A stretch of 60,857 bases of DNA, from the sequence record SRR31156797_528; one strand, written 5' to 3'. Shown piece after piece: positions 18,957-60,857 of this stretch. The notes under the pieces are model-generated. The model saw nothing but the letters and a program-made list of their open reading frames with translations. It ran no database searches and was not told where the DNA came from. The translations under genes and the position numbers were made by a program. Position 1 is the stretch's first letter. Every line of letters starts with the position of its first letter.

Positions 18957-20402
18957 ATGACAAAAAGAATATTGATCTTTATGCTAATTATGATCATGAC
19001 AGTGTCATTAGTAGCTGGCTGTGCTAAAACATCTGTTGAAGATGAGTCTGCAGAAGCAACTGCTGAAGAAGTAACTGAAGAAGCAACTGATGAAGCTTCA
19101 GAAGAAGCAGAAGAGCTTACACCTGTTACTTTAGAAGTTGTTGCTTCTCAACCTGAGTATGCTGCACAAGAACAGGAAATCTGGAACATTTATATGGAGG
19201 AAAATCCACATGTAACAATTGAATTGATTTCAGTTAACGAAGATACTTCTGCTGCATTCAATACTCGTATTGCTAGTGGTGATGCACCTGATATTCAATG
19301 TTACGTAGGCGTTGACAAAGCTAATTACGAAACTTATCAAAACTTAGCAGATATCGATTACCCATACTGGGATCTAATTCAATATGATGCACAAAATGTT
19401 TATTCTGAATCTAACGGAACAGAAGAAGGCTATGTACCTGTATTATATCCATTCTCTGGTACTACTTTCAGCTGGATTTATCATGAAGACGAGATGGAAA
19501 AAGCTGGTCTAAGTCCACGTGAAACTGTACGTACTATGGAAGATTTCGATGCATTCTTAGCTGAGCTAAAAGTATATGTTGACTCAAATGATGATATTAA
19601 ATATACTTTAGATATGGGCTGGCATTCATGGTGTATTTTCTCACAAGAAATTGATGAACTAGCTGTTGCTATGGGATCAAATCAAGATGAACTAAAAGAA
19701 CTATGGATTAACCGTACAATTGCATGGAATGATGTAGAAAACAATCCATATGCTCCTGCTTTTGAAAAGCTGAAAGAATGGTACGACTTAGGTTATCTGC
19801 CTGAAAAATGGTGGACACGTAACTGGGAAACAGACTTCGAAGCTGGATTCACAGCTAAGAACTCTATCCTATGTTTCCACGGACCATGGTTATGGACAAA
19901 AGTAGAAACTGCTGATCCAGATGCACAATTAGGCGGATTCCCAATGCCTGCTAATGAAGATGGTATCATCCAAAATGGTGCTGTTGAGCCAGGTAAAGGT
20001 ACTGTACTATTTGAATGCAATAAAGACGGCGAAAACCAAGAAGAAGCTGTAAAAGCATTTATCTGGTGGAACAGTCCAGAAGTTATCAAAATGCGCGCTG
20101 AAGCATTCGGTTCAGTTCCTCTGATGGATTTATCATCTGTTGGTCAAGCTGAATTGGCTTCATCACAATACAATGAAGTTATAGGACCTATCCAAGAAGG
20201 TTACTTCGGTGACGTTACATTTGACTCATCACTATGGGCAAGTACACTAGTGGCTAAGTACAAGACTAAAGATTCACAAGATGTTCTTGCTGCTGACGAT
20301 ATGGCTGTACAATATGGTGCTTATTTCGAAGGCGAAATGTCACTAGAAGAGTTGCTGCAAATACTGCAAGATCGTTATGATGCAGCTTATTCTTTTGAAT
20401 AA
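18957..20402 (+). CDS. Carbohydrate ABC transporter solute-binding lipoprotein
   Basis: Lipobox VAGC, acidic linker, family-1 SBP size, HGPW motif; followed by two permeases. Confidence 0.9.
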   Translation: MTKRILIFMLIMIMTVSLVAGCAKTSVEDESAEATAEEVTEEATDEASEEAEELTPVTLEVVASQPEYAAQEQEIWNIYMEENPHVTIELISVNEDTSAAFNTRIASGDAPDIQCYVGVDKANYETYQNLADIDYPYWDLIQYDAQNVYSESNGTEEGYVPVLYPFSGTTFSWIYHEDEMEKAGLSPRETVRTMEDFDAFLAELKVYVDSNDDIKYTLDMGWHSWCIFSQEIDELAVAMGSNQDELKELWINRTIAWNDVENNPYAPAFEKLKEWYDLGYLPEKWWTRNWETDFEAGFTAKNSILCFHGPWLWTKVETADPDAQLGGFPMPANEDGIIQNGAVEPGKGTVLFECNKDGENQEEAVKAFIWWNSPEVIKMRAEAFGSVPLMDLSSVGQAELASSQYNEVIGPIQEGYFGDVTFDSSLWASTLVAKYKTKDSQDVLAADDMAVQYGAYFEGEMSLEELLQILQDRYDAAYSFE

Positions 20403-40594: not shown

Positions 40595-40948
40595 ATGAGT
40601 TTAAGTAAACAATATATACCGGTTAAGGAGCAAAAGGCAGAAAAGATGTTTGATGGGATTTACCGCAGAACACTCTGCTACGATGATCAGAATATGCTTT
40701 GTTATTTTACATTAGCAAAGGGATCAGAAATACCTTTGCATAAGCATGTTGCAATACAAAATGGTTATGTTATTAAAGGGAAGGTTCGCTTTTTAAGTGA
40801 AAATGATGATTCTATTGTTGTTGAAGCTGGAGATGGATACTTCTTTAAATCAAATGAAGTTCATGGTTCACAGGTGCTAGAGGATTCAGAATTGATTGAA
40901 TGCTTCTCTCCATGTCGACCAGAATATAAGCCAAAGGATAATATCTGA
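40595..40948 (+). CDS. Cupin protein, KdgF-like
   Basis: H-x-H-xxx-Q (HKHVAIQ), distal His (EVHG), C-terminal FSP.RPEY. Confidence 0.7.
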   Translation: MSLSKQYIPVKEQKAEKMFDGIYRRTLCYDDQNMLCYFTLAKGSEIPLHKHVAIQNGYVIKGKVRFLSENDDSIVVEAGDGYFFKSNEVHGSQVLEDSELIECFSPCRPEYKPKDNI

Positions 40949-40994
40949 AATAAATCTCTATTGTTTCATAAAGAGAAGATTGGAAGATACAAAG

Positions 40995-43900
40995 ATGATA
41001 TATCCAAGGAGTAAAAGCAGTAAATTAGATCAGGAATTATTTAAGAATCCTACATCAGAATATAGAGCGGCACCATTTTGGGCTTGGAATTGTAAGCTTG
41101 ACAAAGAGCAGCTCTTACGGCAGATAAGGCAGCTCAAGGAAATGGGTATGGGAGGATTTATGATTCATGCTAGAAACGGTCTAGCAACCCAATACTTGGG
41201 TGATGAGTTTATGAATCTAGTAAAAGCCTGCAACCAAAAAGGTAATGAAGAAGGTATGCTTACGTGGCTTTATGATGAGGACAGATACCCATCAGGCAGT
41301 GCCGGCGGTATGGTTACAAAGAATAGAGATTTGTCAGCAAAGTATTTGCTGTTTACGCCCTATTCATATGGTAATGCTCCAGAAGAACAAAAGAAAAATC
41401 TGCTCTTTAGTGTACCAAGACAGGAAAACGGAGAGCTATTGTCTAGGTATGCTGTTGAACTTGATAGTGATGGTTTCTTAACATATTATAAACGTCTTGA
41501 AAAAGACGAAGAATATGATGGAGCAGGGCATATTTGGTATGCATATCTTGAAACTGTAGGCGAAAGTCCGTGGTTTAATATGGAAATGTATTCAGACAAT
41601 ATGAATAAGGAAGCTGTCGAGAAATTTATACAAATTACGCACGAAGCCTACTATAAGAAAGTTGGAGATGAATTTGGCAAGACTATTCCAGCTATTTTTA
41701 CTGATGAACCGCAGATAGCAGGGAAGGGAAGGCTAGAGGTATCTACCTCTCTTCGTGATGTTACTTTGCCTTGTACTAAGGACTTATCTGATACATTTAA
41801 AGCAAAGTATGGTTATGATTTATTGGACAAGCTGCCTGAGCTGATTTGGGAATTTACTAATAAACAGTATTCAAAGCTTCGATATGATTATCATCAACAT
41901 ACAAATGACAGGTTCTATGAAGCATTTTTTGAAACAATAGGAAAGTGGTGTGACTCGCATAATATCTGCTTTACTGGTCACTTAATGTCAGAACATTCAC
42001 TGCTGGGTCAATATCTGCGTCTAGGTGAAGCAATGAGGCTATATGATGCATTCCAATTACCAGGCATAGATATACTATCAGATAACCGAGAGTATACAAC
42101 TGCGAAGCAGGCGCAGTCTGTCGTTCATCAAAACGGACAAAACGGAATGATTTCTGAGCTATATGGAGTTACAAACTGGGATTACGATTTCCGAGGTCAT
42201 AAGCTGCAGGGAGACTGGCAGGCTGCTCTAGGGGTGACTGTAAGAGTTCCCCATTTAACTTGGGTATCTATGGAAGGCGAGGCAAAGCGTGATTATCCTG
42301 CATCAATTGGCTACCAGTCTCCGTGGTACAAAGAATATTTTTATGTGGAAGATCATTTTGCCAGATTAAATACTGTATTGACCAGAGGTAAGCCAGAAGT
42401 CCATGTAGCAGTTGTTCACCCTGTGGAGAGCTACTGGATGATTAGCGGTCCTGTGGATAAGACTTTGGATGAATGCACACAAATGGATAATAATTTCAAA
42501 AATTTGTGTGAGTGGCTGATATTTGGACAAATCGATTTTGATTATATTTCAGAGTGTTTGTTAGAAGAAAAATGCAGTATTTCAAATAAATCTTTTAAGG
42601 TTGGTGAAATGTCTTATGATGCTGTAATAGTATCAGACTGTATTAATTTGCGATCTACTACTGTAAAGTTCATAGATGATTATGCAAATTCTGGTGGTAA
42701 AGTTATATTCACTGGACGAGTGCCTGAGATGGTGGATGCTCTGCCTTCGCAAGAGACTCAGAAGCTGATCGAAAAATCAGAATATACTAATCTTTATAAG
42801 ACTCAGATAATATCAGCATTGGACGATTATCGCATTGTTGACATTTGCAGTGAGCGTGGCAACAGAACTGATAACCTGATATATCAAATGCGAATAGATG
42901 AAGACTGCAAATGGCTCTTTATTTGCCATGGACGAAATCCTGAGAAACCAGATATTGTACCACAGGAAACAATAACTATTTCAATAAAGGGTACATGGAA
43001 ACCTCTGGTTTATGAGACAATAACAGGCGAGATAAAAAGCATTGACTACTATTATGAAAATAATAAGACAATAATACCGTACTCATTTTATGCTTATGAT
43101 AGTCTGCTCTTAAAGCTGACATCTTGTGACAAAAGAATTAAACTAGAAAAAAAATTATCAATTGTAAACGAACTTACTAGTATGGAGCTGCCATTATCTG
43201 TACCTATTCGTTTATCTGAACCAAATGTACTATTGCTGGATTTAGCAGTATATGCATATGATGATGGAACGTGGCAGAGCATGGATGAAATATTACGGAT
43301 TGATGCCCAGTTTAGAAGTAATTTAGGCTACCCAAAGCGGGATGGTTATCTTAAGCAGCCTTGGACAATTACTGAAACTGAACAAAATAAACACAGCATT
43401 AAGCTTAGATTTCGAATTGAATCTCAGGTGGATATTTCAGATATAATGCTGGCTATAGAGCATCCGGAATTAGCTGATATTAAGTGGAACGGACAATCTG
43501 TAGAAACTCATGTCAATGGCTGGTTTGTTGATGAATCTATTAAAAAAGTCGGCTTACCTCCGTTAGTCAAAGGTACAAATTTTTTGGAGATAAATATGCC
43601 AATAGGTAAGAGAATTGGTGCAGAATGGTGCTATTTGCTTGGAGATTTCGGAGTAAGGACAAGTGGAAGTAAAAGCATAATCATAGAACCTGTGAGATAT
43701 CTTACATTTGGTGATTGGTGCAGTCAGGGACTTCCGTTCTATGCTGGGAATGTGACGTATTGTATAGATATCGAAACAAAAGATAAACTGCAAATTGAAG
43801 CTGCGCATTTTAGGAACCCTGTATTAAGAGTTGACTTAGATGGTAAGAAGCAGGGATTGATTGCATATGCACCATATCAATTGAAGATAGATACGGATGA

Positions 43901-44087
43901 AGGCAAGCATCTTCTTGAAATAACAGCTTATGGGAATAGATATAATGCATTTGGAGCAGTTCATAATGCTGATGACAAAAGAGAATTTATTGATCCATTG
44001 ACATGGCGGACCACAGGAAATGAATGGAGCTATGAATATAAGTTAAGACCTATGGGAATTCTTGTAAGACCAATAATTAAAGTGTGA
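40995..44087 (+). CDS. Second GH106-like glycoside hydrolase
   Basis: PFWAWN, GGFMIHARNG, WLYDEDRYPSG, FTDEP, PGID, KRDYPA; likely start ATG 40995. Confidence 0.8.
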   Translation: MIYPRSKSSKLDQELFKNPTSEYRAAPFWAWNCKLDKEQLLRQIRQLKEMGMGGFMIHARNGLATQYLGDEFMNLVKACNQKGNEEGMLTWLYDEDRYPSGSAGGMVTKNRDLSAKYLLFTPYSYGNAPEEQKKNLLFSVPRQENGELLSRYAVELDSDGFLTYYKRLEKDEEYDGAGHIWYAYLETVGESPWFNMEMYSDNMNKEAVEKFIQITHEAYYKKVGDEFGKTIPAIFTDEPQIAGKGRLEVSTSLRDVTLPCTKDLSDTFKAKYGYDLLDKLPELIWEFTNKQYSKLRYDYHQHTNDRFYEAFFETIGKWCDSHNICFTGHLMSEHSLLGQYLRLGEAMRLYDAFQLPGIDILSDNREYTTAKQAQSVVHQNGQNGMISELYGVTNWDYDFRGHKLQGDWQAALGVTVRVPHLTWVSMEGEAKRDYPASIGYQSPWYKEYFYVEDHFARLNTVLTRGKPEVHVAVVHPVESYWMISGPVDKTLDECTQMDNNFKNLCEWLIFGQIDFDYISECLLEEKCSISNKSFKVGEMSYDAVIVSDCINLRSTTVKFIDDYANSGGKVIFTGRVPEMVDALPSQETQKLIEKSEYTNLYKTQIISALDDYRIVDICSERGNRTDNLIYQMRIDEDCKWLFICHGRNPEKPDIVPQETITISIKGTWKPLVYETITGEIKSIDYYYENNKTIIPYSFYAYDSLLLKLTSCDKRIKLEKKLSIVNELTSMELPLSVPIRLSEPNVLLLDLAVYAYDDGTWQSMDEILRIDAQFRSNLGYPKRDGYLKQPWTITETEQNKHSIKLRFRIESQVDISDIMLAIEHPELADIKWNGQSVETHVNGWFVDESIKKVGLPPLVKGTNFLEINMPIGKRIGAEWCYLLGDFGVRTSGSKSIIIEPVRYLTFGDWCSQGLPFYAGNVTYCIDIETKDKLQIEAAHFRNPVLRVDLDGKKQGLIAYAPYQLKIDTDEGKHLLEITAYGNRYNAFGAVHNADDKREFIDPLTWRTTGNEWSYEYKLRPMGILVRPIIKV

Positions 44088-52125: not shown

Positions 52126-52703
52126 TTTTGTAGTAGATTTATGTAGGTTACAGTTTGAAATCTGTAGGAAAATTGGATTTGATGTAATAAGTTTTGATGG
52201 TTTTATTCTGTAGCCGCTGATGTATGTTGAAGAACATATGATAAAGTCAAGTGTATTTAGAAGGATTATGTCAACTCTGAAATGAATGATATTTCTGACA
52301 ATTCATTGTCTAGTTTGAAGCTAGCTTTTATTGACTGAACTTTCAGATGTTATATTTGTATTAAATTATTTAGAATCCTGCTTTTATTAATGTTGATACC
52401 ATTATAATAATTGCATTATACATAAATGTTTGGTATGATAACTATGTGAAATAAAACGCAAAGTGACATATGTCCATTTGGGATGTATTGTTTATCATTA
52501 TGTTTATGATTTGATACTTATTCGTACAAAATGAAGTTGACATTTATAATCAGCTTTATAAAATATAAAAATTTAATATTTATTTCCGTAATGCTGTTTG
52601 TATTAATTACATTTGGTTTATGCTACTGATTTTTCTGTCCATTAAAAGAAATATCTTTCATAGTCTGATAAATAATTGCATAGCATTACATTAAAATCTT
52701 TTA

Positions 52704-52721
52704 TTGTGAAATATTTAACAA
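52704..52721. promoter_or_regulatory. Rex (NADH/NAD+ sensor) operator
   Basis: TTGTGAA-ATAT-TTAACAA matches the Rex consensus TTGT(G/T)AA-N4-TT(C/A)ACAA, ~115 bp upstream of hydC. Confidence 0.8.
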
Positions 52722-52837
52722 AGGCAAATTTTGTCTTTGTTTGTGAAGTGATTTTAGAATGCAGAAATATTGATTTCTCAACTAATGGCATGCACTTAAG
52801 ACGACTCAATAAACGACAAAAATGTACGGAGGTAAAT

Positions 52838-53335
52838 ATGCAAGAAGCCCAACAACACAACTGCCATGAACTAGATAACGAAGAACAATACAGATTGTTG
52901 AAGGACGTTATTTCTCAGTTTGATGGCGATGAAAAAAATCTTATTCAGATTCTGCACATGGCACAGGCTATTTTTGGTTGTCTGCCGCTGGATGTGCAGA
53001 AATTCATTGCACAGGAAATGAATATCCCGTTGTCAAGAGTAAGCGGGGTAATCACTTTTTACTCATTCTTTTCAACACAGCCCAAAGGCAAACATACAAT
53101 TCAGATATGTCTTGGTACAGCTTGCTATGTTCGAGGCGGCAAGAAGATTGTTGATAAACTCAAAGAACTCCTAAACGTAGATGTCGGATTAACAACTGAA
53201 GATGGTAAATTCTCTTTGGAAGTAATGAGATGTATCGGAGCTTGCGGGTTAGCACCGGCAATATGTATTGACGATACTGTTTACAAGAGAGTAAATCCCA
53301 ACAAGATTAAAGACATCTTAGAAAAATATGAGTAG
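52838..53335 (+). CDS. hydC: [FeFe]-hydrogenase gamma subunit (NuoE-like, [2Fe-2S])
   Basis: LIQILHMAQ, VITFYSFF, CLGTACYVRG, CIGACGLAP; ATG 52838 after GGAGG. Confidence 0.9.
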   Translation: MQEAQQHNCHELDNEEQYRLLKDVISQFDGDEKNLIQILHMAQAIFGCLPLDVQKFIAQEMNIPLSRVSGVITFYSFFSTQPKGKHTIQICLGTACYVRGGKKIVDKLKELLNVDVGLTTEDGKFSLEVMRCIGACGLAPAICIDDTVYKRVNPNKIKDILEKYE

Positions 53336-56300
53336 GGAGGTAATAATGGATAAAGTTATAAAAAATATAGAAGATTTGAAGAATATAAAATCAGATTTTA
53401 TTAATTCAGAGAAAGATTATGACAAAAGCGTACTTGTTTGCTATGGGGCCAGTTGTATTTCTTCAGACTGTAAAGAAGTAAAAGAGGCACTGGAATTAAG
53501 CATAAAGGAAAATGGCATAGAAGAAAAAATCAGAGTAAAGCTAACAGGCTGTATGGGAACTTGCGCTGTAGGACCAACTATGATAATACAGCCGGAAGGC
53601 GTATTTTACTGCTCTCTTACACCAGAGAAAGTTGATAAAATTGTAAAAGATCACCTGATTGGCGGCGAGATTGTAGAAGAATTCTGCTATGTGGATAAAA
53701 ATACTAATGAAACAGTCCCATATGTAAAAGACATAGAGTACTTCAAGAGACAATTAAAGATAGTTATGAAGAATTGCGGCTCAATAGATTTCAGCTCTTT
53801 AGATGAATATATTGCAAATGATGGATATCTTGCTCTAAACAAAGTCATAAACGAGCAAAGTCCTGAGGAAGTAATTGATATTATTAAGAAATCAGGCTTA
53901 AGAGGCAGAGGCGGCGGCGGATTTCCAACAGGATTGAAGTGGGCATTAGCCCGCAAAACACCAACCGATGAAAAATATATTATATGTAACGCTGACGAAG
54001 GCGACCCTGGTGCATTTATGGATAGATGTCTGGTGGAAGGTGATGCTTACTTAGTTATTGAGGGAATGACAATTGCGGGATATGCGGTAGGTGCAGGTAA
54101 AGGCGTTGTTTACGTTCGTGCAGAGTACCCTGTTGCAATAGAAAGACTTAATGCAGCTATAAAAAATGCGAGAGAAACAGGATTATTAGGAAAAGATATA
54201 TTAGGTTCAGGTTTTGAATTTGATATTGAAATAAGAATTGGTGCAGGCGCATTTGTATGCGGTGAAGAAACAGCTTTGATTTCATCGATAGAAGGAAAAA
54301 GAGGAGAACCAAAACAAAAGCCTCCTTATCCATCAGATAAAGGATTGTACGGTAAACCTTCTATTATCAATAATGTTGAAACTTTCGGAAACATTGCAAC
54401 TATTATCCTAAAAGGTGCTGACTGGTTTAGAGGCATCGGTACGGAAAAAAGCCCAGGAACAAAGGTATTTGCATTAGCAGGTGATATTAACAATACTGGT
54501 ATTATTGAAGTGCCTATGGGTACTACATTAGGTGAGATTATTTTTGATATCGGTGGTGGAATACCTAATGAAAAGAAATTCAAAGTAGCTCAGACAGGAG
54601 GGCCTTCAGGAGGCTGTCTGACATCGGAGCACTTAAATGCTAAGGCTGATTATGATTCACTAGTTGAACTAGGTGCTATCATGGGTTCAGGCGGACTTAT
54701 CTGTATGGATGAAGATACATGTATGGTGGATGTTGCAAGGTATTTCATGGAATTTGTTCAGGAAGAATCCTGCGGTAAATGTGTAGCCTGCAGACTGGGC
54801 ACAAAGCGTATGCTGGAAATATTAGAAAATATAACACAAGGTAAAGGCAAGGAAGGCGATGTAGAGCTTTTGGTTGAGTTAGGATTAACCATCAAGGATA
54901 CAGCTCTTTGCGGTTTAGGACAGACAGCTCCGAATCCTGTTTTATCTACAATTAAATATTTCCGAGATGAATATGATGAACATATAAGGAACAAAAAATG
55001 CAGAGCTGGTGTCTGCGGAGATATGTTCATTTCCCCATGTGAAAATGCATGTCCTGCTGGTGTAAATGTACCCGGATATGTTGCCCTTATTGCTGCTGGC
55101 AGAGCAAAAGATGCTTATAGGTTGATTCGTCAGGAGAATCCTTTCCCATCTGTGTGTGGTAGGGTATGCACACATCCATGCGAGTCAAGGTGCAGGCGTG
55201 CACAGCTTGACGATCCAATTGCAATTGCAGATTTGAAGCGTTACGCAGCTGATGAAATGATGAAATCAGACGAACCATTCTCAGAATTAATTTTCCCCAA
55301 AAACAATAAATCAATTGGTATAGTTGGTGCAGGCCCTTCAGGATTAACATGCGGTTATTATCTGGCAAAGCTAGGTTATGATGTAACAGTTTATGAAGAA
55401 CAGCCAACCCCAGGCGGTATGCTGGCTGTAGGTATTCCTGAATACCGTATGCCCAAGGAAATTTTACAAAAAGAGATTAATACCATACGTCAGGTGGGTG
55501 TGAATATTCTCTGCGATACAAAAGTAGGCGAAGATATTACTTTTGAAGAATTAAAAGAAAAGCACAATGCAGTATACATTGCTACTGGTACTCAACACTC
55601 CAGAAAGATTGGTATTGAGGGTGAAGACCTAGAGGGTGTTTACCACGGACTTGATTTCCTAAAAGATGTTAACCTTAATAAAATCGACAAGATTGACGGA
55701 GTGACGGCAGTAATCGGGGGAGGTAATACAGCTATTGATGCAGCAAGAACTGCTAGGAGAATGGGGGCGAAAGAGGTTCACATCTTCTACCGGAGAGCAA
55801 TATCAGATATGCCTGCTGACAAGCGTGAAATACGTGATGCCATTGAAGAGGGTATTGTGATTCATGAAATGATGGCACCGGTAAAAATGGCTGGAGATGA
55901 TAAAGTTACTGGTATCACATTCCAGCAAATGAAATTTGAAGGTTTTGACAGAAGCGGTCGTAAAGTGCCAAAAGTCATTGAAAACAGAGAGTTCACGTTC
56001 AATGCAGACTTGATAATCCCAGCTGTGAGTCAATATTCAGATTTACCATTTGTAAGCAAAGATGAAGTTGAAGTAACAAAGTGGGGCACATTCGTAATCG
56101 ACTCTGATACTATGATGACTACTATGTCCAGCGTCTTCGCAGGCGGAGATGTAGTAAGGGGTGCAGATGTCGTTATTACAGCTATTGCTGACGGTAAAAA
56201 TGCAGCACGTTACATAGACCTGTATTTAGGCGGAAAAGGTGAACTGAATAAAGGTGAAAAGATTGACATACCAGTGCCTATGGATGATGATGAACTTGTA

Positions 56301-56438
56301 GAGCATGATCGGTTTGAGATGAAATATCTTGACCCTGAATACAGGAAGAATAATTGTGAGGAAGTTGCTCTTGGTTTCCACAAGCTAAACGCTGTAGCGG
56401 AAGCAATGCGCTGTCTCAGATGCGACAGAAGGCAGTAA
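53328..56438 (+). CDS. hydB: [FeFe]-hydrogenase beta subunit (NuoF-like) fused to a GltD/NfnB-like FAD/NADPH oxidoreductase module
   Basis: N-terminal thioredoxin-like 2Fe domain, GLRGRGGGGFPTG, NADEGDPGAFMDR, GGPSGG, ESCGKCVACR; then PCENACP, CGRVCTHPCE..C, VGAGPSG, IGGGNTA, YRR, FAGGD, RCLRC. Confidence 0.9.
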   Translation: MSREVIMDKVIKNIEDLKNIKSDFINSEKDYDKSVLVCYGASCISSDCKEVKEALELSIKENGIEEKIRVKLTGCMGTCAVGPTMIIQPEGVFYCSLTPEKVDKIVKDHLIGGEIVEEFCYVDKNTNETVPYVKDIEYFKRQLKIVMKNCGSIDFSSLDEYIANDGYLALNKVINEQSPEEVIDIIKKSGLRGRGGGGFPTGLKWALARKTPTDEKYIICNADEGDPGAFMDRCLVEGDAYLVIEGMTIAGYAVGAGKGVVYVRAEYPVAIERLNAAIKNARETGLLGKDILGSGFEFDIEIRIGAGAFVCGEETALISSIEGKRGEPKQKPPYPSDKGLYGKPSIINNVETFGNIATIILKGADWFRGIGTEKSPGTKVFALAGDINNTGIIEVPMGTTLGEIIFDIGGGIPNEKKFKVAQTGGPSGGCLTSEHLNAKADYDSLVELGAIMGSGGLICMDEDTCMVDVARYFMEFVQEESCGKCVACRLGTKRMLEILENITQGKGKEGDVELLVELGLTIKDTALCGLGQTAPNPVLSTIKYFRDEYDEHIRNKKCRAGVCGDMFISPCENACPAGVNVPGYVALIAAGRAKDAYRLIRQENPFPSVCGRVCTHPCESRCRRAQLDDPIAIADLKRYAADEMMKSDEPFSELIFPKNNKSIGIVGAGPSGLTCGYYLAKLGYDVTVYEEQPTPGGMLAVGIPEYRMPKEILQKEINTIRQVGVNILCDTKVGEDITFEELKEKHNAVYIATGTQHSRKIGIEGEDLEGVYHGLDFLKDVNLNKIDKIDGVTAVIGGGNTAIDAARTARRMGAKEVHIFYRRAISDMPADKREIRDAIEEGIVIHEMMAPVKMAGDDKVTGITFQQMKFEGFDRSGRKVPKVIENREFTFNADLIIPAVSQYSDLPFVSKDEVEVTKWGTFVIDSDTMMTTMSSVFAGGDVVRGADVVITAIADGKNAARYIDLYLGGKGELNKGEKIDIPVPMDDDELVEHDRFEMKYLDPEYRKNNCEEVALGFHKLNAVAEAMRCLRCDRRQ

Positions 56439-56450
56439 GGGGGATTAAAT

Positions 56451-58274
56451 ATGATTAACTTAAAAATTAATGGTAAAGACATACAAGCCAAAGAGGGTAC
56501 AACAATCCTTAAGGCAGCAAAGGATAGTAATATTACAATACCCAGCCTTTGTCATCTGGAGAATATACATGAATTTGGATCCTGCAGAATATGCGTAGTA
56601 GAAGTAGAGGGTGCGAAAGCACTACAGGCTTCATGCGTAACTCCAGTCTCTGAAGGCATGGTAGTTCATACAAATTCGGCAAGGGTGAGAAACAGACGAA
56701 AAGTACTATATGAATTAATATTATCTGATCATCCAAAGGACTGCCTAAGCTGCGGACGAAACGGAGAATGTGAGCTGCAGGAATTGGGAGAAACTATTAT
56801 GGTAGATAAGACCAGATTTGATGGAGAGAAATCTAAATTCAAAGCTGATGAATCAAGCCCGTCTATAGTACGTGATGCTTCAAAATGTATCCTATGCAGA
56901 AGATGTGTTACAATTTGTAATGAGGTGCAGGGATTAGGGATTCTGAATGCTCAGTCAAGAGGTTTTGCTACTGAAATAGGTCCTGGAAATGATTCTTTGC
57001 TTGGTACTGTTTCCTGCTCAAACTGTGGTCAGTGTACTGTAGTATGCCCTGTTAATGCATTGCATGAGAAGGATTCTCTGGAAGAAGTATGGCAGGCATT
57101 AGCAGATGATTCCAAAATTGTTGTAGTACAGACTGCTCCAGCTATTCGTGCTGCACTAGGTGAAGAATTTGGGTATCCTATTGGCACTTCAGTTACAGGT
57201 AAGATGGTTTCAGCTCTTCGTCAGATTGGATTTGATCATGTTTTTGACACGAATTTCACCGCAGATTTAACCATTATGGAAGAAGGAACTGAATTCCTAT
57301 CAAGGATAGTCAGTTATTTCTATTCTTTGGGTAAAATAACGGATGAGCAGGTGGAAGCTCTGGGAATGAAGGAGCATATCAAAGAGCCTGTTTTGCCTAT
57401 GATTACGTCTTGCAGTCCTGGTTGGATAAAATTTATTGAACACTATTATAGTGACAATTTGGGTAATTTATCAACATGTAAATCTCCTCATACTATGCTA
57501 GGAGCTTTGGTTAAGTCTTTCTTTGCAAAGAAAATTGGTGCTAAACCAGAGGATATGTATGTAGTATCGATTATGCCTTGTACTGCAAAGAAATTCGAGA
57601 TTACACGTCCTGAAATGCAGAATGATGATGCAATGAATGTTGATGCAGTATTGACAACTCGTGAGCTTGGTCGAATGATAAAGCAGGCAGGTATAGATTT
57701 TACTAGTCTTGATGATGACAAATTTGATTCACCAATGGGATTGTCTACAGGTGCTGCAGATATATTTGGTACAACCGGTGGTGTAATGGAAGCTGCATTA
57801 AGAACTGTATACGAAATCATCACAGGTCGTGAACTGCCATTTGAGCAATTGCATGTAACTCCAATAGTTGGTCTGGAGAAGATAAAGACTGCTGCAATAA
57901 CATTTCAAGATGTATTGCCTGCATGGTCATTCTTAAATGATGTAGAGGTAAAGGTAGCTGTAACATCAGGTTTAAGCGGTGCAGCGACATTACTTGATGA
58001 GGTGAAAGACGGAGAAAGTCCATATCTGTTTATAGAAGTTATGGGTTGCCCAGGTGGTTGTATAACAGGAGGAGGACAGCCTAGAAGTGATGATGTAGAG
58101 GTGCGTAGAAAAAGAATGGAATCTTTGTATGCAGAGGATGAGGGTAAGCCTTTACGTAAGAGTCACAATAACCCTGATATTGAAAAACTCTATAAGGAAT
58201 TCTTGGGTAAACCTTTAGGTCATATATCTCATGAACTGCTGCACACTCATTATACCAGAAGAGATAAATATTAA
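56451..58274 (+). CDS. hydA: [FeFe]-hydrogenase catalytic subunit (group A, M3 architecture)
   Basis: N-terminal 2Fe-2S, His-ligated and 2x4Fe-4S motifs; H-cluster motifs TSCSPGW, MPCTAKKFE, EVMGCPGGCITGGGQP; C-terminal ELLHTHY. Confidence 0.95.
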   Translation: MINLKINGKDIQAKEGTTILKAAKDSNITIPSLCHLENIHEFGSCRICVVEVEGAKALQASCVTPVSEGMVVHTNSARVRNRRKVLYELILSDHPKDCLSCGRNGECELQELGETIMVDKTRFDGEKSKFKADESSPSIVRDASKCILCRRCVTICNEVQGLGILNAQSRGFATEIGPGNDSLLGTVSCSNCGQCTVVCPVNALHEKDSLEEVWQALADDSKIVVVQTAPAIRAALGEEFGYPIGTSVTGKMVSALRQIGFDHVFDTNFTADLTIMEEGTEFLSRIVSYFYSLGKITDEQVEALGMKEHIKEPVLPMITSCSPGWIKFIEHYYSDNLGNLSTCKSPHTMLGALVKSFFAKKIGAKPEDMYVVSIMPCTAKKFEITRPEMQNDDAMNVDAVLTTRELGRMIKQAGIDFTSLDDDKFDSPMGLSTGAADIFGTTGGVMEAALRTVYEIITGRELPFEQLHVTPIVGLEKIKTAAITFQDVLPAWSFLNDVEVKVAVTSGLSGAATLLDEVKDGESPYLFIEVMGCPGGCITGGGQPRSDDVEVRRKRMESLYAEDEGKPLRKSHNNPDIEKLYKEFLGKPLGHISHELLHTHYTRRDKY

Positions 58275-58377: not shown

Positions 58378-59232
58378 TTATCGATTTACATTAGCTTGTC
58401 CATGAATTCTTTTTTCATGAATTCTGCGCTGGATAGTTTTTTTGACTAATAAAATAGCCAGATATACTATTGTAGTCAATATAATTATACAAACTCCAGA
58501 TGGAATATTAATATAATATGATATAGCTAATCCAGTAATACAAAAGAACATACTTATAATAGCTGATGAAATTACAACTTTTCCAAAAGACTTAAAGAAT
58601 AGTTTTGCGATGGATGTTGGAGCAGTCATAAGAGCTATGGTTAAAATAATACCAACAATTCTGATAAGTACTATAATACCTATTGGAATTATCAAATATA
58701 CTAAAAATTTAATCAGTTTAATATTGATGTTCTTTGCGCTGGCAAATTCTTCATCGAAAAGGTAAACAATCCAGTAATTATATAAAAGGATAAATACAAA
58801 TAGTATTATAGCTGTAAATATACTCATTGATAGAATTGCTGTATTTGATATTGATAATATATCGCCGAAAAGATAACTGGTCATATCTGGCATATAGCCT
58901 GGCTTTAGTGAAATAAACAGTATGCCTAATGCCATACCAAAAGACCATAATATACCTGTCAATGTATCGGCATTTACTCGTTTGCTTTTGGACAATTTTG
59001 ATATTAATCCTGATGAAGCGATTGCGAAAGCAAGACCACCCAGAATAGGTTCAAATCCTAACAGATATCCTAAACCTATACCACCAAATGAGGCATGGGC
59101 AATACCACCAGACATGCTGATTAGTTTTTTCTCAATTGCTATAGTACCAATAATACCTGTTACAATGCTTGCTAAGACTGCAGCAATCAGTGCATTTTTC
59201 ATAAAAGTATAGTTTAATATTGCTTGAATCAT
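58378..59232 (-). CDS. znuB: Metal (Zn/Mn) ABC transporter permease, ZnuB-like
   Basis: GIAHASFGG, YLFGDIL, FDEEFA, VGIIL, PSG..I. Confidence 0.85.
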   Translation of the reverse strand: MIQAILNYTFMKNALIAAVLASIVTGIIGTIAIEKKLISMSGGIAHASFGGIGLGYLLGFEPILGGLAFAIASSGLISKLSKSKRVNADTLTGILWSFGMALGILFISLKPGYMPDMTSYLFGDILSISNTAILSMSIFTAIILFVFILLYNYWIVYLFDEEFASAKNINIKLIKFLVYLIIPIGIIVLIRIVGIILTIALMTAPTSIAKLFFKSFGKVVISSAIISMFFCITGLAISYYINIPSGVCIIILTTIVYLAILLVKKTIQRRIHEKRIHGQANVNR

Positions 59233-59912
59233 AATTTTATACCATTATTTAAACTTTCTTTTAAGATATTAGGATTGTCATAATATTTAGCAGTTTTATT
59301 TACATATACTGCACTATCAGCAATATCCAAAAAATAGTCAATATTGTGACTTACCAGCAAAATTGCCTTAAACAATTTCAATTTGTTAAGCAGTAAATGC
59401 AGTTCTTCCAGTGATTCTATATCCAGATTGCTGTCTGGCTCATCCAAGACTATTATATCTGCATCTGCAGCTAGTGCCCTTGCAATAATCACACGTTTTA
59501 GCTGACCACCTGATAGTTGATTAATACCTCTGTTTTCAAATCCATCTAACCCTACAGTAGTAATAGCACTCTGCGCTTTTTTCTTATTCTCCTTTGAATA
59601 TTTGAAAAATGGCTTTATACCTTTATTCAATGTTCCTGTCAGAACAACTTCCTTCACAGTTATTGGGAATGAATCATCAAAGTTGAATTTTTGTGCCACG
59701 TATCCAATTGTCAAATTTTCTTTAATTAAAAGGCTGCCGTCATCAGGTTTTAACAGTCCTGAGAAAAGCTTAATCAATGTACTTTTCCCTCCACCATTAG
59801 GACCTACGAGGACGGTCAGCCCTTTGGCAGGAATTGAAAATGTTACATCAGTTACTGCACATACATTTTCATAGCAGTACCTTACATTTTTAAATTCTGC
59901 TGCATGTTTCAC
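59229..59912 (-). CDS. znuC: Metal ABC transporter ATPase, ZnuC-like
   Basis: GPNGGGKST, YVAQ, FPITVKEVV, LSGGQ, LDEP, SH. Confidence 0.85.
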   Translation of the reverse strand: MKHAAEFKNVRYCYENVCAVTDVTFSIPAKGLTVLVGPNGGGKSTLIKLFSGLLKPDDGSLLIKENLTIGYVAQKFNFDDSFPITVKEVVLTGTLNKGIKPFFKYSKENKKKAQSAITTVGLDGFENRGINQLSGGQLKRVIIARALAADADIIVLDEPDSNLDIESLEELHLLLNKLKLFKAILLVSHNIDYFLDIADSAVYVNKTAKYYDNPNILKESLNNGIKL

Positions 59913-59918
59913 TTTTGT

Positions 59919-60824
59919 TTAATCTCCGTTATTTGATAATGCATTTGCGAAATTACGTAGACCTTGTATATAATCTTTAGTTAAAGGAGCAGATTTTACA
60001 ACTGAACCTCCGATTTCCTGTGCTACAGTCTGCGCTTGAGTATCATCAAACTCGTCTTGATAGAATATAGCTGATATACCAATTTCCTTTGCATGTTCTA
60101 TTAGTTCTTCCAATGAAGCTGCAGTAGCGGCTTTGCCATCAGCTTCAATTGCTATCATTTCTAGTCCATAATCATCAGAAAAATATCCATAAGCTCCATG
60201 ATATATCATAAATGCCTTTTTGTCCATATTGCTTACAATATCAGTAATATCACTATCTAGTGCTTCCAAATCATTAATAAATTTTTCTGCATTTTCTTGA
60301 TATACCTGTGAGTTTTCTTCATCCAGTTTTGAAAGCTCGTCCGCTATTGTCTGAACCATAACCATTGCTCGTTTAGGTGACAGCCAGATATGAGGATCAA
60401 CGGTTTGCTCATCCGTATTTTCATCTGAGCTACCACCCATATATCTTAGCGGGTATTGTTCGCTTACTACATCACGCAGATTAACCAGAGTAATTTCCTC
60501 GTTAAAGTCAGCGATTTTTGGAAGGATATTTGCTTCCTCTGTTGGAACATGCATAACAAAATAAATATCTGCATCTGATAATGCCTGCATTTCCGTTGTA
60601 GTAGGCTGATAGTTTGCAGGACTGTTTCCTGGTGGGATTATGGTTACGATTTCTACTAAGTCTCCGGCTACAGCTTCAATAAATCCTGTTTCAGGAACAA
60701 TGCTTGAAGCAATAATAAGTTTATCATCACCTGACGTTTGCTCATTCTCAGCGGAAGTACATCCAGATAAAACAAGTAAAAACATAAGTGAAAAAGACAA
60801 TATTAAAATAAGTAATTTTTTCAT
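59919..60824 (-). CDS. znuA: Metal ABC transporter substrate-binding lipoprotein (cluster A-I, ZnuA-like)
   Basis: Lipobox LSGC, DPHIWLSP, YHGAYGYF; ATG 60824 after AAGGAGG. Confidence 0.8.
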   Translation of the reverse strand: MKKLLILILSFSLMFLLVLSGCTSAENEQTSGDDKLIIASSIVPETGFIEAVAGDLVEIVTIIPPGNSPANYQPTTTEMQALSDADIYFVMHVPTEEANILPKIADFNEEITLVNLRDVVSEQYPLRYMGGSSDENTDEQTVDPHIWLSPKRAMVMVQTIADELSKLDEENSQVYQENAEKFINDLEALDSDITDIVSNMDKKAFMIYHGAYGYFSDDYGLEMIAIEADGKAATAASLEELIEHAKEIGISAIFYQDEFDDTQAQTVAQEIGGSVVKSAPLTKDYIQGLRNFANALSNNGD

Positions 60825-60834
60825 TACAACCTCC

Positions 60835-60857
60835 TTATTGCAAATCATTTGCAATAA
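60835..60857. promoter_or_regulatory. Fur/Zur-family operator
   Basis: Perfect 11-1-11 palindrome TTATTGCAAAT-C-ATTTGCAATAA abutting the znuA RBS. Confidence 0.75.

What the first reader, a model, noticed from the sequence alone, without database searches (positions are those of the whole stretch)
53328..56438. HydB fused to a GltD/NfnB-like NADPH module instead of the usual C-terminal ferredoxin domain
The first ~565 aa are a HydB with signatures associated with bifurcating enzymes (GAFMDR, GGPSG, Cys/His site ...H..C..GVC). At ~55030 the 2x[4Fe-4S] domain that reduces ferredoxin in HydABC is replaced by a GltD-like unit with its own FeS clusters, FAD (GAGPSG) and an NADPH-type site (GGGNTA + YRR). 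Inference: one complex linking H2, NADH and NADPH (and perhaps ferredoxin), a hydrogenase-transhydrogenase hybrid related to Nfn/Stn-type modules. Such fusions may be present in databases, but I know of little biochemical work on them.
Basis: partly seen in the sequence, partly recalled or inferred. Interest (0 to 1): 0.72.

Follow-up and report, generated by a model that had tools for sequence, protein, structure and literature searches.

The report
Hydrogenase diaphorase subunit fused to NADPH module
A three-gene iron hydrogenase whose NADH-binding subunit carries an NADPH/FAD module where the ferredoxin-reducing domain normally sits; the type is common in Clostridia, and I found no enzyme work on it.

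Summary
ORF 53328-56438 (1036 aa) is a complete HydB/NuoF-type subunit up to the His/Cys hinge (C563). It then continues, after 7 residues, into a GltD-like 2x[4Fe-4S]/FAD/NADPH module. It lies between hydC and hydA.

New points:
- The module is circularly permuted. Its last ~40 residues, with CxxC 1029/1032, are the N-terminus of a normal NfnB.
- It shares this permutation and a Lys at the FAD-proximal cluster with the non-bifurcating NADPH modules of StnC/NfnA(Bfu). It also shares them with ~610-aa subunits encoded beside dimeric hydrogenases. NfnB has Glu at that position.
- The HydB half keeps the marks of bifurcating enzymes.
- The partner HydA always has TSCSPGW, with Ser at a [4Fe-4S]H ligand position.
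- The operon is conserved and common: 71 of 80 fetched loci, and 36 of 398 other sampled genomes of the class.

One 2018 genome paper already noted the architecture. I found no biochemistry.

Most likely it is a hydrogenase with no ferredoxin-binding domain that links H2 to both NAD(H) and NADP(H). Whether the two nucleotides are energetically coupled cannot be read from sequence. It is a new variant of a known kind.

The parts
52537..52564 (+). promoter-like site upstream of hydC (TTGACA-16-TAAAAT)
   Evidence: 11 of 12 consensus matches. The scan found 18 such sites against 23.3 expected from shuffles, so this is weak evidence only.
52838..53335 (+). hydC (NuoE-type [2Fe-2S] subunit), probable start ATG 52838, 165 aa; the longest ORF starts at TTG 52676
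   Evidence: Pfam 2Fe-2S_thioredx 5.3e-50. GGAGG at 52827-52831 lies before ATG 52838. Relatives align only from about residue 55-69 of the long ORF. Cys 145/150/186/190 in long-ORF numbering.
53328..56438 (+). hydB::gltD fusion gene, 1036 aa
53421..53651 (+). N-terminal thioredoxin-like [2Fe-2S] domain of HydB (residues 32-108; C38, C43, C75, C79)
   Evidence: Pfam hit. The four Cys are invariant in 46 of 46 fused proteins.
53883..54614 (+). FMN/NAD(H) domain and SLBB domain (residues 186-429), with GAFMDR 228, GAGAF 305-309, GGPSG 424-428
   Evidence: Pfam hits. Motif positions. A229, M231, F309 and GGPSG are invariant in 46 of 46. The criteria come from PMC7311640 section 17.
54729..54983 (+). 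four-helix-bundle domain with the N3-type [4Fe-4S] (C482, C485, C488, C528)
   Evidence: Pfam NADH_4Fe-4S 6.9e-34. The Cys are invariant.
54981..55016 (+). hinge (B2/Zn-type) site: H552, C558, C563, with C465 upstream
   Evidence: It aligns residue for residue with A. woodii and T. kivui HydB and with StnB. C465, H552, C558 and C563 are invariant in 57 of 57. Ligand roles follow the T. sibiricus NfnB numbering quoted in PMC12018979, mapped by the offset of the alignment. That mapping is my inference.
55017..55268 (+). start of the permuted GltD module: [4Fe-4S]-binding helical domain (C571, C575, C610, C614, C618, C622, K637)
   Evidence: Pfam Fer4_20 matches only profile positions 23-111 of 113. 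Alignments to StnC, NfnA and NfnB. All these residues are invariant in 46 of 46.
55314..56195 (+). FAD (GAGPSG 667) and NADPH (GGGNTA 797, YRR 821) Rossmann domains
   Evidence: Pfam Pyr_redox_2 5.1e-28. The motif residues are invariant. GxGxxA is read as an NADP(H) motif in PMC7483475 (passage).
56310..56426 (+). C-terminal tail (residues 995-1033) equal to the N-terminal segment of a normal NfnB/GltD; carries CxxC 1029/1032
   Evidence: phmmer aligns it to residues 5-43 of T. maritima NfnB 4ylf_B and to the end of the GltD insert of 9bov_A, 9n5u_A and 8oh5_C. C1029 and C1032 are invariant in 46 of 46. The model gives a helix at 1019-1029 with pLDDT 71-81.
56451..58274 (+). hydA, [FeFe] hydrogenase catalytic subunit, 607 aa (2Fe-2S, His-ligated 4Fe-4S, 2x4Fe-4S, H-domain, SSU-like tail)
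   Evidence: Pfam and NCBIfam hits; NF040763 scores 867.8 against a cut-off of 765. All FeS Cys/His are invariant in 57 of 57.
57405..57425 (+). H-cluster motif L1 in variant form TSCSPGW (Ser322 in place of the second Cys)
   Evidence: The ligand role of the replaced Cys is taken from PMC11966682 (passage).

Best explanation
hydC-hydB::gltD-hydA encodes a soluble heterotrimeric [FeFe] hydrogenase of the HydABC/Bfu lineage with three substrate sites: the H-cluster (H2), the FMN of HydB (NAD(H)) and the FAD of the fused module (NADP(H)). It has no ferredoxin-binding domain.

Shown from sequence:
- The HydB core keeps every cofactor site and the marks of bifurcating B subunits.
- The 2x[4Fe-4S] ferredoxin-like domain after the hinge is replaced by a circularly permuted GltD module. 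Its chain ends lie at its own distal-cluster loop, 7 residues after hinge ligand C563.
- The module is of the Stn/NfnA(Bfu)/NF009410 type (Lys ligand). In StnABC this type was shown to be a plain NADPH-to-FeS converter, not a bifurcating flavin.

Inferred: electrons pass FAD - proximal [4Fe-4S] (K637) - distal [4Fe-4S] (C1029, C1032, C571, plus one Cys of the second segment) and on into the HydBC core, at the place where the ferredoxin branch normally leaves.

My committed reading: in this sugar fermenter the enzyme makes H2 from NADH and NADPH together. NADPH takes the role of the low-potential partner that ferredoxin has in HydABC: NADH + NADPH + 2 H+ = 2 H2 + NAD+ + NADP+. This would allow H2 formation up to about 100-200 Pa, against a few Pa for NADH alone.
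For: Architecture and cofactor residues.

Bifurcating-type marks:
- A229/M231 and GGPSG match the criteria in PMC7311640 section 17 and are invariant in 46 of 46.
- The N-terminal [2Fe-2S] Cys and the hinge residues C465/H552/C558/C563 are invariant.
- By sequence and fold, the nearest solved chains for residues 1-567 are B subunits of proven bifurcating enzymes: A. woodii, T. kivui and T. maritima HydB, and the NiFe HydB.

Module type:
- Best solved matches are C. saccharolyticus NfnA 9bov_A (E 1e-118), T. sibiricus NfnA and S. ovata StnC. All score ahead of NfnB/NfnL.
- K637 aligns with StnC K170, where NfnB has Glu.
- The Stn paper shows that StnC feeds NADPH electrons without bifurcating (PMC10482914, Discussion).
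- The permutation is shared.

Conservation as a unit:
- 71 of 80 loci are fused, 66 with hydC directly upstream and 67 with a hydA-like gene directly downstream. One of the 67, L079, is only a 237-aa FeS protein without an H-domain.
- Fused-operon HydAs are monophyletic, 100/100, for all 20 sampled.
- 66 of 67 fused HydB cores form one clade, support 0.992.

Distinct role: genomes with this operon also hold canonical HydB+HydA sets with the ferredoxin-like domain. So this one is an extra enzyme, not a replacement.

Energetics (my calculation), using potentials quoted in PMC9304861 Table 1 and PMC6288185: NADH alone equilibrates at 4.4 Pa H2, and NADH+NADPH at 128-186 Pa.
Against: No assay exists, and coupling is not readable from sequence.

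The ~610-aa relatives (39% identical to residues 485-1033) work without FMN, HydC or a Zn hinge, beside a HydA or an FDH-like protein. In them the same module probably hands electrons to the N3-type cluster or straight to the A subunit. If that wiring holds here, NADPH reaches the H-cluster without passing the bifurcating site, and no coupling is needed.

NADPH alone could already drive H2 to 3.7-7.9 kPa, so coupling to NADH is not compulsory.

The third criterion of PMC7311640 (Phe, not Tyr, at 'T. maritima 367') could not be mapped by number. I take it to be GAGA[F/Y].

The nucleotide preference of the FMN site is unknown; T. kivui HydABC is said to use NADP (PMC12018979 passage).

Ser322 at a [4Fe]H ligand position leaves the properties of the catalytic site open.

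Neither the direction in vivo nor expression was observed.
Confidence: 0.4

Rival explanations
1. Uncoupled dual-nucleotide hydrogenase, possibly doubling as an FeS-wired transhydrogenase. The module feeds or drains the ordinary FeS chain (N3-type cluster or HydA clusters). NADH and NADPH then each exchange electrons with H2, and with each other, independently and without energetic coupling.
For: The same unit (four-helix bundle with N3-type cluster + hinge remnant + permuted GltD) exists as a stand-alone ~610-aa subunit. It lies beside a TSCCPGW HydA (L096, L097) or an FDH-like protein (L095), with no FMN domain and no HydC. So the module can serve a hydrogenase without any bifurcating core.

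In Stn/NfnABC the module feeds the mid-potential chain (PMC10482914 Discussion; PMC9304861 passage).

NADPH alone is reducing enough for kPa H2.
Against: All 46-57 family members keep features that non-bifurcating NADH hydrogenases have lost: the N-terminal [2Fe-2S] domain, GGPSG, A/M at the NADH site and the full His/Cys3 hinge (PMC7311640). Short HydBs in the same genomes show what relaxed forms look like: NFK/TFK and no GGPSG in three (L082, L088, L091); in the fourth (L093) my patterns caught only GAGAY.

Here the module is attached after the hinge, not in the A subunit as in Stn.
Confidence: 0.3
2. Ferredoxin or flavodoxin is still a substrate. It docks at the exposed distal [4Fe-4S] of the module, as it does on NfnB. 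This gives a four-substrate enzyme (H2, NAD, NADP, Fd), a hydrogenase and Nfn/Stn-type transhydrogenase in one complex.
For: The two module clusters stand where B3/B4 stand in HydB. The core bifurcating marks are kept. The FastTree sister of the fused HydB clade is the NuoF-like subunit (L089) that lies beside an StnC-like 1166-aa protein, support 0.975.
Against: No ferredoxin-like domain or gene is in the operon. The module type is the one that lost bifurcation, and in Stn it does not bind ferredoxin; B3/B4 of StnB do that (PMC10482914 Discussion). The sister relation rests on one sequence in a small, fast tree.
Confidence: 0.2
3. The complex is not a working H2-converting enzyme (for instance a sensor or a diaphorase only), because HydA lacks the canonical Cys ligand in motif L1.
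For: [quoted passage not shown]
Against: Ser322, C321, C377, C533, C537 and the remaining H-domain motifs are invariant in 57 of 57. The variant marks a large clade: 24 of the 150 nearest cluster representatives. It also occurs with other HydB types. No sensory domains (PAS, kinase) are in the operon.
Confidence: 0.05

Closest known systems
Electron-bifurcating [FeFe] hydrogenase HydABC (T. maritima, A. woodii, T. kivui; Bfu family)
   Same: Same three genes in the same order. The HydB core has the N-terminal [2Fe-2S], FMN/NADH site, N3-type cluster, GGPSG and His/Cys hinge. Identity to solved HydB chains is 47-56% (Foldseek rows for the full-length chains; alignments).
   Different: The C-terminal 2x[4Fe-4S] ferredoxin-like domain (B3/B4), the exit to ferredoxin, is absent. 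A 473-residue FAD/NADPH module takes its place. HydA has TSCSPGW instead of TSCCPxW.
StnABC / NfnABC (Nfn-Bfu) transhydrogenases (S. ovata 8oh5, C. saccharolyticus 9bov, T. sibiricus 9n5u)
   Same: The NADPH module is the same kind: permuted order, Lys at the proximal-cluster position, and FAD and GxGxxA NADPH motifs. These are the best solved matches for residues 565-1033. The B and C subunits are homologous.
   Different: In those enzymes the module is inserted into the A subunit after its [2Fe-2S] domain. The A subunit has no H-cluster, and the B subunit keeps B3/B4 for ferredoxin. Here the module is on the B subunit, B3/B4 are gone and the A subunit is a hydrogenase.
~610-aa NAD(P)-binding subunits of family NF009410 (PRK12771), encoded beside HydA or FDH-like genes. 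By the HydDB rule these are the GltD-linked group A2 type; that filing is my reading.
   Same: 39% identity over residues 485-1033, including the four-helix bundle with the N3-type cluster, His and the first Cys of the hinge, the permuted module, the Lys in three of the four I read (L094, L096, L097; my pattern missed L095) and the CxxC tail.
   Different: They lack residues 1-~440 (the [2Fe-2S] domain, FMN/NADH site and SLBB) and the second hinge Cys. They have ~15 more C-terminal residues. They pair with a TSCCPGW HydA and have no HydC. The window protein scores 496.8, below the family cut-off of 516.
NfnAB / NfnSL (NfnB, NfnL)
   Same: Same fold and cofactors in the large subunit: 2x[4Fe-4S], FAD, NADPH.
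   Different: NfnB has the native order (N-terminal CxxC) and a Glu ligand at the proximal cluster, its FAD bifurcates, and it pairs with NfnA. None of these applies here (PMC10482914).
Non-bifurcating NADH-dependent [FeFe] hydrogenases (S. aciditrophicus HydAB, S. wolfei Hyd1ABC type)
   Same: No ferredoxin-binding domain on the B subunit. HydAs beside short HydBs in related genomes share the TSCSPGW variant.
   Different: Their B subunits have T/S..K/S/A at the NADH site and Tyr in place of Phe, and lack GGPSG, the N-terminal [2Fe-2S] domain and any second nucleotide site (PMC7311640 section 17).

Membership tests
HydB / BfuB of electron-bifurcating HydABC-type enzymes | NuoF-type FMN/NADH domain and N3-type [4Fe-4S] | tested here: met
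   Pfam Complex1_51K 1.8e-47 and NADH_4Fe-4S 6.9e-34. C482/485/488/528 invariant.
HydB / BfuB of electron-bifurcating HydABC-type enzymes | N-terminal thioredoxin-like [2Fe-2S] domain | tested here: met
   Pfam match at 32-108. C38, C43, C75 and C79 invariant in 46 of 46.
HydB / BfuB of electron-bifurcating HydABC-type enzymes | Sequence marks of bifurcating B subunits (PMC7311640): A/E and M at the NADH site, and GGPSG | tested here: met
   GAFMDR at 228 and GGPSG at 424, invariant. Both lie at offset +3 from the T. maritima numbers.
HydB / BfuB of electron-bifurcating HydABC-type enzymes | Phe instead of Tyr near the FMN site ('T. maritima 367') | tested here: inconclusive
   The number could not be mapped. 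GAGAF309 (Phe in 46 of 46) fits the paper's description. One short HydB shows GAGAY (L093). F367 is Phe in 38 and Tyr in 8 of 46.
HydB / BfuB of electron-bifurcating HydABC-type enzymes | His/Cys3 hinge (B2/Zn) site | tested here: met
   H552, C558 and C563 align with HydB and StnB. C465 was mapped by offset. All are invariant.
HydB / BfuB of electron-bifurcating HydABC-type enzymes | C-terminal ferredoxin-like domain with two [4Fe-4S] (B3/B4) | tested here: not met
   Alignments to HydB chains end at residue 564-572, except one NiFe HydB chain (7t2r_B) that runs on to residue 604. There is no ferredoxin-type Pfam hit and no CxxCxxCxxxCP motif after C563.
HydB / BfuB of electron-bifurcating HydABC-type enzymes | Coupled reduction of NAD(P)+ and ferredoxin by H2 | not testable with these tools
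   Needs enzyme assays.
NADPH module of StnC / NfnA (Bfu) | Permuted order: the module starts at PCxxxCP and ends with the helix + CxxC that opens a normal NfnB | tested here: met
   Fer4_20 is matched only from profile position 23.
NADPH module of StnC / NfnA (Bfu) | Lys (StnC K170) at the proximal-cluster ligand position | tested here: met
   K637 aligns with K170 and is invariant in 46 of 46. The C114 counterpart is Val/Ile/Thr.
NADPH module of StnC / NfnA (Bfu) | Insertion into the NuoG-like A subunit after its [2Fe-2S] domain | tested here: not met
   Here the module follows HydB residue 563. HydA has no insert.
NfnB / NfnL (bifurcating large subunit of NfnAB) | Glu ligand of the proximal [4Fe-4S] | tested here: not met
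   Lys in place of the Glu of 4ylf_B and 5vj7_A.
NfnB / NfnL (bifurcating large subunit of NfnAB) | NfnA/NfnS partner gene | tested here: not met
   No such gene within 45-60.8 kb of the window. The rest of the genome is not held.
NCBIfam NF009410 (PRK12771, NAD(P)-binding protein) | Score at or above the curated cut-off | tested here: not met
   496.8 bits against a cut-off of 516. The stand-alone relative L097 scores 601.5.
[FeFe] hydrogenase group A catalytic subunit (HydA) | H-cluster motifs L1 TSCCPxW, L2 MPCxxKxxE, L3 ExMACxxGCxxGGGxP (as written in PMC6085437) | tested here: not met
   L2 is present (MPCTAKKFE). L1 is TSCSPGW and L3 is EVMGCPGGCITGGGQP. NCBIfam NF040763 is above its cut-off, 867.8 against 765.
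HydDB [FeFe] group A3 (NuoF-linked) | NuoF domain in the neighbouring protein (rule quoted in PMC5037454) | not testable with these tools
   HydDB could not be run. The rule looks at the downstream protein, whereas here the NuoF gene is upstream. The rule's clause 'GltD ... but not NuoF' would send a NuoF+GltD protein to A3.

The most novel reading that the evidence does not exclude
This is the first Bfu/HydABC-type enzyme whose low-potential branch ends in a pyridine nucleotide instead of ferredoxin. It would be an NADH/NADPH-confurcating hydrogenase, using the in-vivo gap between the NADPH and NADH pools to push H2 formation about 30-40-fold above the NADH-only limit. Its H-cluster [4Fe-4S] would have lost a canonical Cys ligand to Ser. 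If so, the conformational gating of the HydBC core works with a covalently attached 2-electron acceptor. That would make the bifurcation mechanism testable without ferredoxin.
Probability: 0.3. Interest if true: 0.8.

Novelty: new variant of a known kind. Interest (0 to 1): 0.6.

Why it matters
HydABC-type hydrogenases are the main route by which fermenting anaerobes dispose of NADH as H2. How they bifurcate is still argued; see the cryo-EM papers read.

This family is common: about 9% of sampled genomes of the class, and all 120 listed database homologues share the length and domain set. In it, nature has swapped the ferredoxin exit for an NADPH site.

If the two nucleotides are coupled, several things follow:
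- The low-potential partner need not be ferredoxin.
- There would be a ferredoxin-free system for studying the gating mechanism.
- Redox and H2 budgets would have to be written differently for many Clostridia of guts and digesters.
- It would offer a route from NADPH to H2 for engineering.

If they are not coupled, it is still an unassayed NAD(P)H hydrogenase type that current classifiers file as an ordinary bifurcating enzyme.

The Ser-for-Cys change at the H-cluster is a natural experiment on a ligand regarded as essential.

Tried and rejected
- Complex prediction (GltD module 564-1036 against HydA 1-215, to ask whether the module docks on HydA as in StnC) was never accepted. No result exists, so the wiring question stays open.
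- No whole genome is held for the window. The physiological context comes from five other genomes that hold the operon.
- The look-up of sequencing runs: one DNA holder and no RNA holder listed.
- The NCBIfam name of HydA ('NADH-dependent [FeFe] hydrogenase, group A6') looked like a clue to ferredoxin independence. I rejected it because a HydA beside a canonical HydB also passes that model, 769.9 against 765.
- I first took C430 as the third Cys of the hinge. Offset mapping to the T. sibiricus numbers points to C465 instead. Both are invariant.
- I first thought C558/C563 might be the missing first two ligands of the Fer4_20 clusters. The tail alignment shows that CxxC 1029/1032 fills that role.
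- TSCSPGW is not exclusive to ferredoxin-domain-less complexes. L073 and L075 have it, and L083 and L087 have TSCSAGW, all beside canonical HydB.
- The AlphaFold model (pLDDT 80.6, pTM 0.70) and the Foldseek search only confirm the two halves. Coordinates are not returned, so cluster distances could not be measured.
- Literature. Searches found no assay of this architecture. Two reviews and the Bfu family paper (PMC6288185, PMC6405883, PMC9304861) gave passages for my terms with none on this fusion, and a third review (PMC8924675) had no hit.
- Calusinska 2010 and Poudel 2016 are recalled, not held. I opened no supplements. Any of these may mention the fusion.

Full report
**What is there.** The window (35.6% G+C) holds three co-directional genes.
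- hydC: the longest ORF is 52676-53335, but the start is probably ATG 52838, behind a GGAGG.
- A 1036-aa gene at 53328-56438. Its start overlaps the hydC stop.
- hydA at 56451-58274.

Pfam finds six domains in the 1036-aa protein: a thioredoxin-like [2Fe-2S] domain (32-108), the NuoF FMN domain (186-357), SLBB (381-429), the NuoF [4Fe-4S] bundle (468-552), Fer4_20 (562-647) and a pyridine-nucleotide-disulfide oxidoreductase domain (663-956).

Against solved structures the protein splits cleanly. Residues 34-567 match HydB of A. woodii (E 9e-217), the NiFe HydB of A. mobile, T. kivui HydB and T. maritima HydB. Residues 565/569-1033 match the GltD-like insert of 9bov_A, 9n5u_A and 8oh5_C. Foldseek on an AlphaFold model (pLDDT 80.6, pTM 0.70) names these entries as C. 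saccharolyticus NfnABC, T. sibiricus NfnABC and S. ovata StnABC, and gives the same split.

**The HydB half.** Alignment with A. woodii and T. kivui HydB and with StnB runs without gaps through ...EYDEHIRNKKCRAGVC. That stretch is the hinge site, which in these enzymes binds Zn through one His and three Cys (PMC12018979, passage). By offset to the T. sibiricus numbers, the ligands here are C465, H552, C558 and C563; this mapping is my inference. All four are invariant in 57 of 57 aligned family members.

Losey et al. list marks that separate bifurcating from non-bifurcating B subunits (PMC7311640, section 17 read whole). Ala/Glu and Met at the NADH site, and GGPSG, are both present and invariant in 46 of 46. 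Their third mark, Phe rather than Tyr, I could not map by its printed number. The site that fits their description, GAGA[F/Y], is Phe here in 46 of 46, and Tyr in one short HydB (L093). The N-terminal [2Fe-2S] Cys and the N3-type cluster Cys are invariant too.

What is missing is the ferredoxin-like domain with two [4Fe-4S] clusters that follows the hinge in all these enzymes. That domain hands the low-potential electrons to ferredoxin (PMC10482914 Discussion; PMC12018979).

**The fused module.** Seven residues after C563 the chain enters a GltD/NfnB fold at ...SPCENACP. Three results define which kind it is.
- Order. Residues 568-699 align with T. maritima NfnB 44-179, and residues 940-970 with NfnB 432-462. 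The last stretch, 995-1033 (...RKNNCEEVALGF...AEAMRCLRC), aligns with NfnB residues 5-43, its N-terminus. The module is therefore circularly permuted. The helix and CxxC that open a normal NfnB close this protein. Pfam agrees: Fer4_20 is matched only from profile position 23, and from 17-26 in the fused proteins of five other genomes. Ordinary ~460-470-aa GltD/NfnB-like genes in those genomes match from position 1-2. C1029 and C1032 are invariant in 46 of 46.
- Shared permutation. The GltD inserts of StnC, of both NfnA(Bfu) structures and of a stand-alone family described below have the same permuted order.
- Ligand. In NfnB a Glu ligates the FAD-proximal cluster. In StnC, Lys170 (alternating with C114) does so, and StnC does not bifurcate (PMC10482914 Discussion). 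The column of K170 holds Glu in NfnB of T. maritima and in P. furiosus Xfn. It holds Lys in StnC, in both NfnA chains and here (K637, invariant).

The FAD motif GAGPSG, the GxGxxA motif and YRR are invariant. GxGxxA was read as NADP(H)-specific for StnC (PMC7483475, passage).

More exactly, it is the non-bifurcating, permuted Stn type.

**How common, and is it one system?**
- The protein database returned 7999 hits. The 120 listed are all 1026-1048 aa, 67-81% identical, and have the same domain list.
- In one-genome-per-species contigs, 586 stretches encode relatives and 80 were kept. Of these, 71 are fused, 2 are cut by a contig end and 7 are unfused.
- Of the 71 fused loci, 66 have hydC directly upstream and 67 have a hydA-like gene directly downstream. 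The misses lie at contig ends, except L079.
- Record titles span Christensenellaceae (81% identity, the nearest), Oscillospiraceae, Clostridiaceae, Anaerovoracaceae, Peptococcaceae, Lachnospiraceae and others.
- In an even sample of the class of the nearest complete genome, a frame of 999-1094 aa (one cut at 844) spans the junction in 37 of 399 scored genomes. That is 36 of 398 without the centre genome itself.
- HydAs of fused operons are monophyletic: 100/100 for 20 of 20 sampled.
- 66 of 67 fused HydB cores form one clade in a FastTree, support 0.992. The outlier is L079.
- The five carrier genomes searched hold 3-8 matches to the H-domain family each. Where I read the stretches around these and around the NuoF-family matches, I found canonical HydB (597-641 aa) and short HydB (417-431 aa) sets, most with a HydA beside them. 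The fused enzyme is thus an addition, not a substitute.

**Relatives that bear on the wiring.** The junction query also hit frames of ~615-647 aa at ~47% identity over its whole length. Four were fetched. Each is ~610 aa and consists of the NuoF four-helix bundle with its N3-type Cys motif, His and the first Cys of the hinge, the permuted module, and CxxC followed by ~15 more residues. The Lys showed in three of the four; my pattern missed L095. One of them, L097, is 39% identical to window residues 485-1033, and it is a true member of NF009410. Two lie beside a HydA with canonical TSCCPGW, and one beside a molybdopterin FDH-like protein.

By the rule quoted from the HydDB paper (PMC5037454), these look like the GltD-linked 'A2' type; that filing is my reading. 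They show that the unit 'bundle + module' serves a hydrogenase without FMN, HydC or a complete hinge.

Other placements also exist:
- a 1159-aa HydA with the module inserted (L086);
- StnC-like 1166-aa proteins beside a NuoF-like gene (L089);
- a NuoF::GltD fusion in an operon with a glutamate-synthase-domain protein and no H-cluster protein (L079).

The permuted module is thus a cassette used at several positions in this enzyme superfamily.

**The catalytic subunit.** HydA has all FeS ligands of an M3-type enzyme plus an SSU-like tail. Its L1 motif, however, is TSCSPGW. In ungapped alignments with T. kivui HydA1, the HDCR HydA2 and C. reinhardtii HydA1, Ser322 sits under the second Cys of TSCCP. 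It lies 55 residues before the L2 Cys, as C170 lies before C225 in CrHydA1. [quoted passage not shown]

Where the variant occurs:
- Ser322 is invariant in 57 of 57.
- 61 of the 71 fused loci show TSCSP and none shows TSCCP. In the other 10 the motif region is not in the locus or, in L079, does not exist.
- Among the 150 nearest 50%-cluster representatives, 94 have TSCCP and 24 have TSCSP or SSCSP. Nine have other forms and 23 did not match my pattern. The Ser forms are concentrated among the nearest.
- The variant also goes with short, non-bifurcating-type HydB (4 of 4 seen) and with some canonical HydB (L073, L075; TSCSAGW in L083, L087). It is therefore a clade trait, not a mark of this fusion alone.
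- The only paper found with this motif is a passing remark on Melainabacteria hydrogenases (PMC3787301).

**Mechanism.** These points are shown: three substrate sites, no ferredoxin domain, a non-bifurcating type of NADPH module, and a module whose chain ends sit at the loop of its own distal cluster, directly behind the hinge. The rest is inferred.

- Reading 1 (0.4). The module replaces B3/B4 as receiver of the electrons that the mobile HydC [2Fe-2S] domain carries away from the flavin site. The enzyme then couples NADH and NADPH: 2 H2 + NAD+ + NADP+ = NADH + NADPH + 2 H+. Potentials of -280 mV (NADH) and -370 to -380 mV (NADPH) are quoted in PMC9304861 Table 1 and PMC6288185. With them, the pair equilibrates at 128-186 Pa H2 at 37 C. 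NADH alone gives 4.4 Pa and NADPH alone 3.7-7.9 kPa. The strict retention of the bifurcation-type features argues for this reading.
- Reading 2 (0.3). As in the 610-aa relatives, the module talks to the N3-type cluster or to HydA, so both nucleotides act independently. The complex could then also act as an FeS-wired transhydrogenase.
- Reading 3 (0.2). Ferredoxin still docks, at the distal cluster of the module.
- Reading 4 (0.05). HydA is not a working catalyst.

**Known or new.** The architecture is in print. [quoted passage not shown] The HydDB rule 'GltD ... but not NuoF' (PMC5037454) also implies that such proteins had been seen.

I found no purification, assay or structure. Two reviews and the Bfu family paper gave passages for my terms with none on it, and a third review had no hit. 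Limits: only open-access papers and preprints are searched, three listed papers could not be opened, and two older surveys are only recalled.

- the permutation and its sharing with the Stn, NfnABC and NF009410 modules;
- the Lys/Glu distinction applied to this family;
- the intact hinge next to the module;
- the single origin and the prevalence;
- the obligatory Ser variant of HydA.

**Verdict.** This is a real and common member of the HydABC/Bfu superfamily in a variant form whose reaction is unknown: a new variant of a known kind. Interest 0.6.

Noticed in passing
window 57405-57425 (HydA residues 319-325): The H-cluster motif L1 reads TSCSPGW. Ser322 stands where all solved [FeFe] hydrogenases aligned have the second Cys of TSCCP, a [4Fe]H ligand. 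It is invariant in 57 of 57 family HydAs and marks a wider clade: 24 of the 150 nearest cluster representatives.
   Followed up: partly
L094:4732-6561, L095:3999-5828 (-), L096:4147-5997 (-), L097:5022-6851: ~610-aa proteins made of the NuoF four-helix bundle (N3-type cluster), a hinge remnant and the same permuted GltD module. L097 is 39% identical to window residues 485-1033. Three lie beside a TSCCPGW HydA (L096, L097) or an FDH-like molybdoenzyme (L095); I did not read the neighbours of L094. They look like FMN-less, unfused relatives of the fusion.
   Followed up: partly
L079:3435-11540: A second NuoF::GltD fusion (1023 aa, 52% identical) sits in an operon with NuoE, a small [2Fe-2S] protein, a 237-aa FeS protein without an H-domain, a Glu_synthase-domain protein and a glutamate dehydrogenase. 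This may be a Bfu-type glutamate synthase.
   Followed up: partly
L086:2564-6040; also P0160, P0161, P0166-P0168, P0171 and others of 1100-1200 aa: [FeFe] hydrogenase catalytic subunits of ~1160-1195 aa. The one I read (L086) has the permuted GltD module inserted (HydA::GltD) with TSCCPGW; P0171 has TSCSPGW. For the P proteins I saw only lengths and L1 motifs. The same cassette thus seems placed on the A subunit of a true hydrogenase.
   Followed up: no
L082, L088, L091, L093 (genomes G001, G002, G005): The carrier genomes also encode short HydB (417-431 aa). Three have NFK/TFK at the NADH site and no GGPSG; in L093 only GAGAY was caught. That is the non-bifurcating pattern, and each is paired with a TSCSPGW HydA. 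One close relative (G001) holds four multimeric HydAB sets of three kinds.
   Followed up: partly
L089 (G005:C1:686500-695000): An StnC-like 1166-aa protein lies beside a 611-aa NuoF-like subunit. In a small FastTree that subunit is the sister of the fused HydB clade (support 0.975). This hints that the fusion arose from an Stn-type complex.
   Followed up: no
window 7713-51008: A dense set of plant-glycan and deoxy-sugar genes: rhamnose isomerase, rhamnulokinase-like FGGY kinase, class II aldolase, GH43, GH31, GH95, GH42, GH2, a GH106-like protein, alpha-L-fucosidase, GDSL esterases, two transaldolase-family genes, a split transketolase, and an AraC-type two-component pair. The organism is a saccharolytic fermenter.
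   Followed up: no
window 58378-60857 (-): A ZnuABC/AztABC-type metal ABC transporter lies directly downstream of hydA on the other strand. No hydrogenase maturase genes (hydE/F/G) are in the window.
   Followed up: no
window 13175-14215 (-), 18957-20402 (+), 30564-32321 (-), 40896-44087 (+): Four long ORFs (346, 481, 585 and 1063 aa) have no Pfam hit at E <= 1e-8.
   Followed up: no
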